64,000 nt of DNA, taken from Octopus sinensis (taxonomy: Eukaryota). The position numbers were made by a program, and so were the translations under genes. Positions 44,372 through 47,577 of the stretch are shown in pieces (the first letter of the stretch is position 1; the number at the start of each line of letters is the position of its first letter). The stretch is from assembly GCF_006345805.1 (NCBI RefSeq), contig NC_042997.1, positions 190,340,001 through 190,404,000 on the forward strand, given 5' to 3'. The notes below the pieces were generated by a model. The model had not been told where the DNA came from, ran no database searches, and saw nothing but the letters and a program-made list of their open reading frames with translations.

Positions 44372-45187
44372 GTAGTTGGTAAGTGAAAGATATGAGAAGT
44401 AAATAATGAAGGTTGTTCTTGTCTGAGACATCCAGAATTGCCCTTACAAAATTGGATAGGCATGCGCGTAATGGTACAGATGGAATCAATTATATTTATC
44501 TACATTTCCAAATGCTCCATTAATCAACTTTGGAGTCACTGTATATTATACATGAATTCAGATATAATTACCATAAACGTTCTTGTTCATATAAAGTGAA
44601 TCCCTGATATTGGCGTTTTACTTTTTTAATTGTAGGATAAAGGTTTTTATTAATTATTAACTATCAACAAGTTACTTAACAGTACAAAATGGCAAATGCT
44701 GTTTGTAATTGCAATCAATAATCCTCTACACCAACGTTATCTGTAGCGCTTATAGTTTATGAGAAATACTCGGAATTTCTCCAAAGTTTACGATAAAGTT
44801 AATAAAGCTTATGATAATCTTATCACCATTTAGCATTTATTCTACATTATTAATGGCGTACATCAGTATAGCGAAATTGAATCACAAGCCATCGATTAAA
44901 GACGTTTGCTTATCCTTTCTGAAGTCACGTTATAAATACTATATAAATCAAATCGATCAATACGTCGTCCAAGAGATCTCATCAAAACTTCATCGATAAT
45001 TTAAAACAAATAGATATTTAAATCTTGGGCAATTATTTATCTTTTCGGTCTGCGAAGTTAACGTTTCATTCACTAGCATATCAAATTGTGCTCAAAAGTA
45101 AGAAAGCTTATGTGAGCCATCTCCCGTTTTATTAGCAAATATTAACAGAAGAATGGAATTATGCCACATTTTATCCCTTCCGTTGTT

Positions 45188-45986
45188 TCTTATTTCTTAT
45201 TTCTTTATTGCCCACAAGGGGCTAAACATAGTGGGGACAAACAAGAACAGACAAAGGGATTAAGTCGATTACCTCGACTCCAGTGCGTAACTGGTACTTA
45301 ATTTATCGACCCCGAAAAGAGGAAAAGCAAAGTCGACCTCGGCGGAATTTGAACTCAGAACATAGCGGCAGACGAAATACCTATTTCTTTATTACCCACA
45401 AGGGGCTAAACTCAGAGAGGACAAACAAGGACAGACACAGGTATTAAGTCGATTACATCGACCCCAGTGCGTAACTGGTACTTATTTAATCGACCCCGAA
45501 AGGATGAAAAGCAAAGTCGACCTCGGAGGAATTTGAACTCAGAACGTACCGGCAGACGAAATACCTATTTCTTTACTACCCACAAGGGGCTAAACACAGA
45601 GGAGACAAACAAGGACTGATAGACGGATTAAGTCGATTATATCGACCTCAGTGCGAAACTGGTACTTAATTTATCAACCTCGAAAGAATGAAAGGCAAAG
45701 TCGACCTCGGCGGAATTTAAACTCAGAACGTAACGGCAGACGAAATATCTATTTCTATTTCTTTACTACCCACAGGGGGCTAAACACAGAGAGGACAAAC
45801 AAGGACAGACAAACGGATTAAGTCGATTACATCGACCCCAGTGCGAAACTGGTACTTAATTTATCGACTCCGAAAGGAAGAAAAGCAAAGTCGACCTCGG
45901 CGGAATTTGAACTCAAAACGTAACGGCTGACGAAATACGGCTACGCATTTAGTCCGGCGTGCTAACGTTTCTGCCAGCTCGCCGCC
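45188..45986 (-). mobile_element. SINE A tetramer (one head + four about 184-bp bodies)
   Basis: Junctions near 45381, 45565 and 45749; one 18-bp TSD TTTATCCCTTCCGTTGTT at 45170-45187 and 45987-46004. Confidence 0.9.
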
Positions 45987-47577
45987 TTTATCCCTTCCGT
46001 TGTTGTTTGGTCTTCTAAATACGCAAGCAATAATACATTTGTATTCAAACGTACTCACACTAGCCAGCTATCTAATTCTAATTGTCCCAAATTTAAAGGC
46101 TTCCTTATGTACTTCACTGAAAAAGAAGCCAAATGTTCCGTCCCTAAATTTCTGAATCAAGTTGCCAACTATTTATTTTCTATGTTCCATTTTCTCTATA
46201 TTCACATTTTCATTTGATTTAATGTACGAGATTACTCTCATAGCCATAGACACTGACTCTCAAAGGTACACAATTTTGCACATTCGCACACAAATACAAA
46301 CTCACTCACATTCATATATATATATAAGCAGAAACATATTGATTAAAGGAAACGCACCCACGCACACAGAGATATGCTTGTAAATAAATACTTAACTATG
46401 TATAGACTCTTAAATTCATAGTCACGTGTGTATGAAAGACTAGGTCTTAAATTCATAAGTACAGACAAACATATGCATATATATATATATATATATATAT
46501 ACATACATACACATTCCTGCATACTTGCACTGACACATACGTATGCATACATAGAAAACCTTAAACCATACACACACAAATATATGCTAGAATGTGTGTA
46601 TAGATAAACATAGATAAACACACACGCACACACACACACACACACACACACTTATAAATATAAATATGCATAGATATGTTCAGGTGAATATTCAAATCTT
46701 TTTCTCTCTTAAGCTCCTATACACCTTCATTCCGACATATATATATACACATACATACATTTTGGCTTTAATTCCTCGAAGATAGGAAAAGAATTGATTT
46801 TTTTTACTTACATTTTAACGTGCTTCAGAATGAGAAATTATAGATTTGTTTCCTTTAAATCTATGAATACTTATAGACAATGCTTCTTTCTGTGACTCTA
46901 GGCAAACAAACACTAGCACCGCCGCCATAACTGCTGCAGTAATCTGTTCATATGACTGTTGAACAGAATTTACGAATTTACGGAAGTTTATTTTTGGGCC
47001 CAGAAAAATGTCTCTAGGCTAAGGGTACTATTTTTTTTTTATCATTATTCATCAAATCAAGATACAAAATAAACGAAGGAAGGTTGTGCTTGCTGACACA
47101 AAATCATTTGTGCGACAATGACATCTTGTGCAAGGAGGTAAAAACCAAGATGAAGAAAATAGAATAACCACATCAAATGAAAGGATGTGTCGTTGAAAAT
47201 GAGAAAGGACTAGGGGTGTGGGTAGTAATAAAATGTTGAATGAGAATGAGTACAGAAAGTAGATCGATGAACAGCGAGGAAGATGATAATGATAATAAAA
47301 TAAAAGCAACGAAAGAAAATCCTGGCAAATGTTGTAAAATGGTGAGAGGAGGGAACAGACATAGCAGCTAGCTTCATGAATGTTAAATCACTGAGTGACT
47401 CGAAACTAAGTGAAGTTTAACAGTTTTCATAGTTTTATTAAATAATTCTAGCAACTGGTGTATGATGACCCTCCATCACATTTGCCATCAATCTTCCTTA
47501 TCAGTTATCTGAATGTGGCAAAGCTTTCTGTTGAAGTAAAATAGAAAAATTAAATAATAACAGCGACAACAATAATA

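What the first reader, a model, noticed from the sequence alone, without database searches (positions are those of the whole stretch)
45170..46004. SINE A multimers with a fixed junction; tetramer bounded by a single TSD
Seen: one tRNA head followed by four about 184-bp bodies, flanked by one 18-bp TSD. The same junction, in which the 3' tail ...AAATA is fused to the internal GGTATTTC, recurs at unlinked loci (near 5452, 19218, 38423, 61133) as well as inside the array. The bodies differ from each other at several positions, so this is not a recent perfect duplication. Inference: multimers are produced by a programmed route. Candidates are rolling-circle reverse transcription of a circularised headless body RNA (as proposed for retrozymes), site-specific insertion of the SINE into its own GAAATRC-TTAGC-GGTATTTC hairpin, or a multimeric master copy. 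Ordinary SINEs insert as monomers.
Basis: partly seen in the sequence, partly recalled or inferred. Interest (0 to 1): 0.8.

Follow-up and report, generated by a model that had tools for sequence, protein, structure and literature searches.

The report
Self-targeting SINE that chains itself
A short jumping repeat, likely of an octopus, has inserted again and again into other copies of itself at one exact base, and the resulting chains of two to eight units were likely copied around the genome whole, with the RNA's own read-through tail likely guiding where it lands.

Summary
In detail: on the minus strand lie one 47-bp tRNA-like head and four 184-bp bodies inside a perfect 18-bp target-site duplication (TSD). 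The junction J1 has 30,775 exact matches genome-wide. In a 1.26-Mb sample, 94 of 112 tail-to-SINE joins fall at head position 48; 15 fall at a second site, position 15 (J2).

In 21 of 42 loci read, a full SINE sits inside another SINE's head at position 48, and a TSD with host-private bases rebuilds J1. About 3-4 such events are expected by chance; 430-735 are estimated. Tail subfamily T lands on GGT targets (12 of 21 TSDs) and subfamily C does not (0 of 14), which fits pairing of read-through RNA with the target.

Rolling-circle copying is not supported: the tetramer's units are different subfamilies, and many chains end in other SINE families. Primary events are only about 1% of junctions. 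The rest are inferred read-through copies, and some long arrays grew locally. No RNA and no partner LINE were shown.

The parts
45987..46004 (.). Target-site duplication, copy at the 5' side of the element (18 bp)
   Evidence: identical to 45170-45187
45940..45986 (-). tRNA-like head, positions 1-47, with the A-box-like motif (45962-45976) and the 5' arm of the head hairpin; present once in the array
   Evidence: the A-box label is from recalled Pol III promoter consensus; ARAGORN finds no tRNA gene
45756..45939 (-). Body unit 1 (head position 48 to tail): B-box-like motif 45902-45914, central domain, family-A tail with stem-loop 45768-45780; T-type tail
45750..45755 (-). Extra GAAATA at the unit 1/2 junction (variant J1)
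   Evidence: one more such variant among 94 sampled J1 joins
45566..45749 (-). Headless body unit 2, T-type tail, different subfamily haplotype from unit 1
   Evidence: array 24
45382..45565 (-). Headless body unit 3, T-type tail; exact J1 at its 5' end (45565/45566) and 3' end (45381/45382)
45198..45381 (-). Terminal body unit 4, C-type tail subfamily (likely the former host element); tail stem-loop 45210-45222
45188..45197 (-). Short AGAAAT-type tail extension of the C-type end, running into the TSD
45170..45187 (.). Target-site duplication, copy at the 3' side of the element
5285..5682 (-). Head + A body + J1 (5452/5453) + family-B body and tail: a heterodimer inside its own 18-bp TSD (ends approximate)
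4860..5267 (-). Head + C-type A body + J2 (near 5050, head position 15) + family-B element (ends approximate)
19198..19447 (-). Monomer followed by J1 and only about 21 nt of the next unit
38304..38612 (+). 5'-truncated dimer, J1 at 38423/38424, C-type terminal tail
60903..61285 (+). Headed dimer, J1 near 61134, C-type terminal tail

Best explanation
Family-A SINE copies have inserted repeatedly into other SINE copies at head position 48, which rebuilds the same junction each time, and the chains were likely transcribed by read-through and copied whole by a LINE enzyme. Steps: (1, shown) insertion of a full A element into a host SINE at GGTATTTC duplicates the host bases and gives host head, TSD, new head, body, tail, TSD, host body. 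(2, inferred) Pol III starts at the new head and, with no terminator in most units, reads on into the host body, so the RNA is head-body-J1-body. (3, inferred from the sequences) the LINE reverse transcriptase binds the tail stem-loop (loop CTTGT) and starts about 12 nt downstream. If it uses the last tail, the whole chain is inserted inside one TSD, as here. If it uses an inner tail, a shorter copy results. (4, inferred) the RNA bases just past an inner tail (GGUAUUUC for T-type, AGAAA for C-type) pair with the nicked target, so targets that start with those bases are favoured, and the best such targets are other SINE copies. The loop feeds itself and adds a unit per round. (5, shown for some arrays) local tandem duplication lengthens some chains further.
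For: Primary nested insertions: 112 exact pattern matches; of 42 loci read, 21 have a TSD starting at position 48 that shares at least one host-private base, 10 are compatible, 8 are not, 3 have no A tail found. Two of the 21 are inserted trimers (L136, L306). Control window at the B box: 26 matches, 19 stretches read, none nested there by eye. Estimated 430-735 primary events against about 3.4 expected at random. Junction positions: 94 of 112 at 48, 15 at 15, 3 elsewhere. J1 tails are T-type in 84 of 92, J2 tails C-type in 14 of 15 (p=1.5e-11). Free ends: GG follows 28 of 59 T tails and 1 of 36 C tails (p=1.6e-6); AGAA follows 0 of 59 and 9 of 36 (p=8e-5). Among ends whose TSD starts at the tail, it begins GGT in 12 of 21 T and 0 of 14 C (background 1%). 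Nested insertion at J2 in 3 of 30 rows read (L174, L183, L185) and at existing J1 sites in about 4 of 20 by eye. Chains move whole: outer TSD of 10 bp or more in 13 of 24 headed A-ended multimers, 8 of 22 A-B heteromers and 27 of 50 monomers. The tetramer is a mosaic of subfamilies. The tail stem varies between families while the loop is kept. RNA-primer complementarity aids priming by L1 (PMC3649969, passages).
Against: Primary events are about 1% of junctions; in the unselected sample 0 of 109 headed arrays were primary at 48 and one was primary at 15. So the route of nearly all copies, this one included, is inferred. No transcript was shown: run X11 is only a guessed RNA run held as contigs. 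53 of 173 units carry T4 and 9 carry T5, and the focal copy has five T4 runs, so read-through is not open for every present-day copy. TA at TSD positions 3-4 is favoured overall (T 25 of 31, A 24 of 31) and TATA starts are equally common in both tail types (8 of 59, 8 of 36), so an endonuclease preference also acts. A few of the 28 GG free ends are short J1 remnants, not target bases. 33 of 94 units have their nearest neighbour in their own array. The partner LINE was not found. The enrichment estimate rests on a sample 2.6 times denser in tails than the genome mean and on two detection corrections.
Confidence: 0.72

Rival explanations
1. Reverse-transcriptase template jumping builds most chains in one event. 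The enzyme copies a body, pauses at the head hairpin at position 48 and moves to another SINE RNA through the shared GGUAUUUC or the shared body. Nested insertion is then real but minor.
For: Arrays are mosaics with many unit combinations. One sampled locus has a 5' extra piece copied from a junction-containing template inside its TSD (C1:16.13 Mb). Partial 5' head duplications are common. Position 48 lies in the 3' arm of a predicted hairpin.
Against: It does not explain host-private TSDs at position 48 or the GGT bias of targets outside SINEs. J2 lies at a different place and pairs with the other tail type. B2 and B3 bodies are often B-type right after J1 (5 of 9 typed b2, 2 A-type, 2 ambiguous), where switching anywhere in 110 shared bases would often give A-type; the numbers are small.
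Confidence: 0.15
2. One or a few ancestral multimeric master copies fixed the junction once; copy number then varied by unequal crossover or slippage at each locus.
For: About 99% of junctions are not primary. Long arrays are homogeneous: arrays 64, 87, 102 and 109 have all units nearest to each other. Last units are often C-type.
Against: J1 is rebuilt de novo in at least 21 different hosts. 61 of 94 units, and all 4 of this tetramer, are nearer to units elsewhere. Chains end in four different tail families. This route likely explains the long arrays but not the junction.
Confidence: 0.08
3. A headless body RNA is cut at position 48, circularised and copied by rolling-circle reverse transcription, as proposed for retrozymes.
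For: Units are head-to-tail with a fixed join. Some arrays are near-identical inside. Animal retrozymes of similar monomer size make circles (PMC7229834, passages).
Against: One circle gives identical units, but the tetramer's mean inner distance is 0.107, at the 62nd percentile of unrelated pairs. A-B heteromers and the single head need further jumps. Rfam finds no ribozyme (best hit E=7.2). Junction formation is already accounted for by TSD geometry. Circular RNA itself was not tested.
Confidence: 0.03
4. Targeting comes from the enzyme or chromatin alone: the endonuclease prefers NNTA, or the head hairpin as DNA, or Pol III-bound sites, without RNA-target pairing.
For: TA at TSD positions 3-4 in 25 and 24 of 31. 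RTE-clade elements have a TA-centred signature (PMC13295347, sections 3.3 and 4.1).
Against: One enzyme preference cannot give GGT for T tails and AGAA for C tails unless two LINEs serve the two subfamilies. GGT-starting targets are mostly outside SINEs. No clear upstream T stretch was seen.
Confidence: 0.1

Closest known systems
TSD-(SINE)n-TSD arrays of the blood clam Scapharca broughtonii (PMC11481361; passages read)
   Same: First unit with a complete tRNA head, later units truncated at one head position, last unit with a complete tail, one outer TSD.
   Different: There the inner units also have truncated tails, 64 elements were in arrays of 4-15 units, and the authors discuss unequal recombination. 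Here inner tails are whole, about half of A-containing elements are chains (71 of 139), and nested intermediates show how the junction forms.
SINE-derived satellites of squamates, sSat1-3 (PMC10702118; parts 3 and 4 of 5 read)
   Same: Tandem units from part of a SINE with a longer terminal unit; long arrays are more homogeneous.
   Different: sSats are explained as DNA-level duplications, tend to be subtelomeric and are not described as retrotransposed units. Here short mosaic chains are dispersed and flanked by TSDs.
Head-to-tail multimers of Dip, B2 and Ves, and dimeric SINEs such as Alu (PMC8466645; passages)
   Same: A large share of copies in multimers (Dip 49%, up to eight units); the authors leave open whether by insertion into another SINE or by copying of dimers.
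   Different: Those are full-length units joined at A-rich tails. Here the join is internal, at one base of the head, and both routes appear linked in one cycle.
RNA-target pairing in TPRT: L1 poly(A)/T-tract priming (PMC3649969; passages), RTE 3' repeats matching the TSD start (PMC13295347; two sections), R1Bm read-through pairing (recalled; paper not held)
   Same: RNA bases at the priming site bias the target and the first TSD bases.
   Different: Here the pairing bases would come from read-through into the previous target, and that target is the element's own head.
Octopus tRNA-derived SINEs OR1, OR2, OK (Ohshima and Okada 1994; seen only as citations)
   Same: Recalled resemblance: tRNA-like head, shared central domain, alternative tails.
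   Different: Identity not tested; no reference sequence was available. The papers read class OR1/OR2 as CORE-SINEs, while the central domain here is recalled as Meta-like.
Animal non-LTR retrozymes (PMC7229834; passages)
   Same: Short dispersed tandem repeats from dimers up.
   Different: No hammerhead or other ribozyme found here; a Pol III-type head, TSDs and mixed units are present.

Membership tests
tRNA-derived SINE | 5' head with A- and B-box-like motifs | tested here: met
   motifs located at 45962-45976 and 45902-45914; box consensus recalled; not a tRNA gene by ARAGORN
tRNA-derived SINE | Short, non-coding, dispersed in high copy number with TSDs | tested here: met
   81,426 exact tail matches; TSDs in 27 of 50 headed monomers
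tRNA-derived SINE | 3' tail shared with a partner LINE | tested here: inconclusive
   27 RT-coding loci inspected (26 gave a frame), none shares the tail stem-loop; one RTE-like copy ends in 15 nt of the SINE tail, without a TSD in the stretch held
tRNA-derived SINE | Transcription by RNA polymerase III | not testable with these tools
   only contigs of a guessed RNA run were available
Octopus OR1/OR2/OK (CORE- or Meta-SINE) | Sequence match to the published consensus and central domain | not testable with these tools
   no consensus in the tools; a motif search of two MetaSINE supplement files found nothing and one file was not searchable
Non-LTR retrozyme | Hammerhead or other self-cleaving ribozyme in each unit | tested here: not met
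   Rfam scan of 45100-46100 up to E=10 gave one unrelated hit at E=7.2
Non-LTR retrozyme | Monomer-length circular RNA | not testable with these tools
   no raw RNA reads among the 24 runs listed
Non-LTR retrozyme | Units of one array copied from one template | tested here: not met
   0 of 4 units nearest to each other in the tetramer; 33 of 94 overall
SINE-derived satellite (sSat) | Homogeneous units made by local amplification | tested here: inconclusive
   met for arrays 64, 87, 102, 109; not met for the focal tetramer
RTE-mobilised SINE (Tn-TA signature) | TA at the TSD start with a T stretch about 10 nt upstream | tested here: inconclusive
   TA strong at positions 3-4; upstream T at most 16 of 31 at any position

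The most novel reading that the evidence does not exclude
A SINE with a heritable RNA guide: the bases it reads through past its tail are set by its last target and steer its next insertion, so two subfamilies have each locked onto one base of the SINE's own head. The family grows as a self-seeding polymer that also captures three other SINE families, at a scale of tens of thousands of loci.
Probability: 0.6. Interest if true: 0.75.

Novelty: new variant of a known kind. Interest (0 to 1): 0.62.

Why it matters
How much RNA-DNA pairing, as opposed to the endonuclease, decides where non-LTR elements land is an open question outside L1 and a few site-specific elements. This genome holds a natural experiment: two tail subfamilies one base apart, each with its own read-through sequence and its own matching targets, over some 100,000 insertions. 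It also gives a concrete origin for head-truncated SINE arrays like those reported in clams, a route for module swapping between SINE families (A head on B tails), and a reason why repeat annotation in this genome would split one family into many. The multimers themselves are not new as a class.

Tried and rejected
Ribozyme or structured RNA family: Rfam gave nothing; the monomer folds no better than shuffles (z -0.84). tRNA gene: none. Partner LINE: a stem-loop scan of the sample and 27 RT loci from a Pfam PF00078 search showed no shared tail; the family names CR1-like and RTE-like are recalled from motifs, and a Pfam check was not completed. L279 ends in 15 nt of SINE tail but no TSD was found in the stretch, so it is only a hint. 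Single heterodimer master: rejected, 10 haplotypes in 22 (two of the five haplotype fields failed to score there and were ignored). Crossover mapping in A-B1 heteromers was uninformative because headed B1 copies are themselves often A-type at that place (3 of 5). Empty site in relatives: contigs of runs X1, X3 and X5 (organisms A, C, D) join flank to element at one or both ends, so the insertion is shared; no empty site was listed, most joints were not shown, and unit number could not be read. RNA: X11 covers the element and not the flanks, but it is a guessed RNA run held as contigs and cannot tell circles from read-through or embedded copies. Earlier scan findings: two look-ups returned nothing. 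Prior description of this system: not found in searches; subscription papers, including the 1994 octopus SINE paper, and Repbase or Dfam entries could not be seen.

Full report
Observation. The stretch 45170-46004 is a SINE array on the minus strand. It has one 47-bp head, four 184-bp bodies (TRF period 184, 4.0 copies, 88% matches) and a perfect 18-bp TSD. Two inner junctions read AAAGAAATA|GGTATTTC; the third has an extra GAAATA. By recall the family resembles the octopus tRNA-derived SINEs; this name comes from no call and could not be tested.

Scale. G000 holds 30,775 exact J1 matches, with 0 for the reversed control, against 81,426 exact family-A tails (the two patterns differ, so the ratio of roughly one third is approximate). 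I took eight stretches, 1.264 Mb with the window, chosen by me and 2.6 times denser in tails than the genome mean. Of 207 tails, 112 run into another SINE unit: 92 at head position 48, 2 more at 48 after an extra GAAATA, 15 at position 15 (J2) and 3 elsewhere. J2 has 2,346 exact matches genome-wide. Of 139 A-containing elements, 68 are monomers, 49 dimers, 15 trimers, 4 tetramers and 3 longer (degenerate tails can split an array). So the junction is fixed, at two sites.

Units. In the tetramer the mean distance between units is 0.107, the 62nd percentile of between-array pairs; none of the four has its nearest neighbour in the array, and they carry different subfamily haplotypes. Over 37 arrays, 33 of 94 units do have their nearest neighbour at home, and the two arrays with 6 and 7 scored units are homogeneous. 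Many chains end in a body of another family (three B-type tails). An outer TSD of at least 10 bp was found in 13 of 24 headed A-ended multimers, 8 of 22 A-B heteromers and 27 of 50 monomers, so chains were inserted whole about as often as monomers can be shown to be. A single circular template cannot give mixed units, and Rfam shows no ribozyme.

How the junction is made. If an A element inserts into another SINE at GGTATTTC, the host's head and a TSD should lie just upstream of a second head. That pattern has 112 exact matches. Rows 1-57 of the list hold 44 distinct loci; I read 42 and skipped two with tandem heads. A script classed 21 as nested at position 48 with a TSD sharing at least one host-private base, 10 as compatible, 8 as not nested and 3 as lacking an A tail. 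Hosts include old B-type copies and J2 chains; two inserts are trimers. The same search at the B box gave 26 matches; in the 19 stretches that cover them I saw no insertion with a TSD there (judged by eye). Correcting for exact-match rates (45 of 109 new heads, 39 of 191 host sites) gives 430-735 primary events against about 3.4 expected at random; the 21 read already exceed that expectation. Nested insertion also occurs at J2 (3 of 30 rows) and at existing J1 sites (about 4 of 20 by eye, of 68 matches). Most other matches in those searches are partial 5' duplications.

What guides it. One base in the tail stem splits A into T and C types. J1 tails are T in 84 of 92, J2 tails C in 14 of 15 (p=1.5e-11). 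The same split shows at free ends: GG follows 28 of 59 T tails and 1 of 36 C tails; AGAA follows 0 of 59 and 9 of 36. Where the TSD starts at the tail, it begins GGT in 12 of 21 T and 0 of 14 C cases, against a 1% background; these bases were therefore in the target before insertion. The simplest reading is that the RNA runs past the tail into its J1 or J2 sequence and pairs with the nicked target, as L1 RNA does with T tracts (PMC3649969, passages) and as suggested for RTE 3' repeats (PMC13295347, sections 3.3 and 4.1). A shared TA at TSD positions 3-4 (25 and 24 of 31) and TATA starts in both types point to an added endonuclease preference. The tail stem-loop keeps the loop CTTGT with different stems in the A and B families, which fits a recognition signal for the reverse transcriptase; that role is inferred.

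Model. Nested insertion creates J1 (shown). Pol III read-through from the new head makes a chain RNA (inferred; 120 of 173 units have no T4 run). The LINE enzyme starts at the last tail or at an inner one (inferred). The read-through bases bias the next target to GGTATTTC, best met by other SINE copies (inferred from the statistics). The tetramer would then be a T-T-T chain that entered a C-type host and was later copied here as a whole. Contigs of three other organisms join flank to element at this locus, so the insertion is not recent; no empty site was listed.

Limits. Primary events are about 1% of junctions, and none of 109 headed arrays in the sample was primary at 48. Template jumping could build many chains directly; one locus shows a 5' jump onto a junction-containing template. 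Long arrays grew locally. No RNA was shown, circular or linear, and no partner LINE was found among 27 RT loci.

Comparison. The architecture matches the TSD-(SINE)n-TSD arrays of the blood clam (PMC11481361, passages) and recalls squamate SINE satellites (PMC10702118, parts 3-4) and Dip/B2 multimers (PMC8466645, passages). It is not a retrozyme (PMC7229834, passages). I found no account of base-exact self-insertion guided by read-through RNA in ten searches, but the library lacks subscription papers and repeat databases. Verdict: real, a new variant of a known kind, interest 0.62.

Noticed in passing
window 4860-5682 (-); also sample stretches: At least three B-type tail families share the head and central domain with family A and end in a stem-loop with the same loop and a different stem. 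B1 bodies were seen more often behind J1 (11) than with their own head (5).
   Followed up: partly
L115-L123, L132-L134, L317; G000:C3430, C10381, C28:20.09 Mb: Tandem runs of the SINE's 5' end alone (periods about 23-105 bp, up to 10 or more copies) in front of a full element, inside the TSD where one was seen; likely repeated restarts at the 5' end or later slippage.
   Followed up: partly
L279:2890-2935: An RTE-like LINE copy ends in a GA run followed by the last 15 nt of the SINE A tail and GGTG; it may be a chimeric insertion that points to the partner LINE. No TSD in the stretch held.
   Followed up: partly
G000:C1:16,132,820-16,133,150 (sample C1_16): About 50 nt of tail plus J1 lie 5' of a full head, inside a 16-bp TSD: a likely template jump onto a junction-containing RNA.
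   Followed up: partly
L271-L276, L281, L282, L286-L289: A young, dispersed CR1-like LINE family (label recalled), 90-99% identical in protein, ending in a short stem-loop and (ATT)n.
   Followed up: no
L241-L270: The best-scoring RT loci cluster on unplaced contigs, many with identical scores; the seven read end in 3' UTRs unlike the chromosomal families.
   Followed up: no
window 1-235 (-): The element at the window's left edge is the first unit of an A-A-B trimer that continues outside the window (row 6).
   Followed up: yes
whole window: Very dense microsatellites (136 TRF rows, AT runs up to about 950 bp); SINE A often inserts at TATA starts.
   Followed up: no
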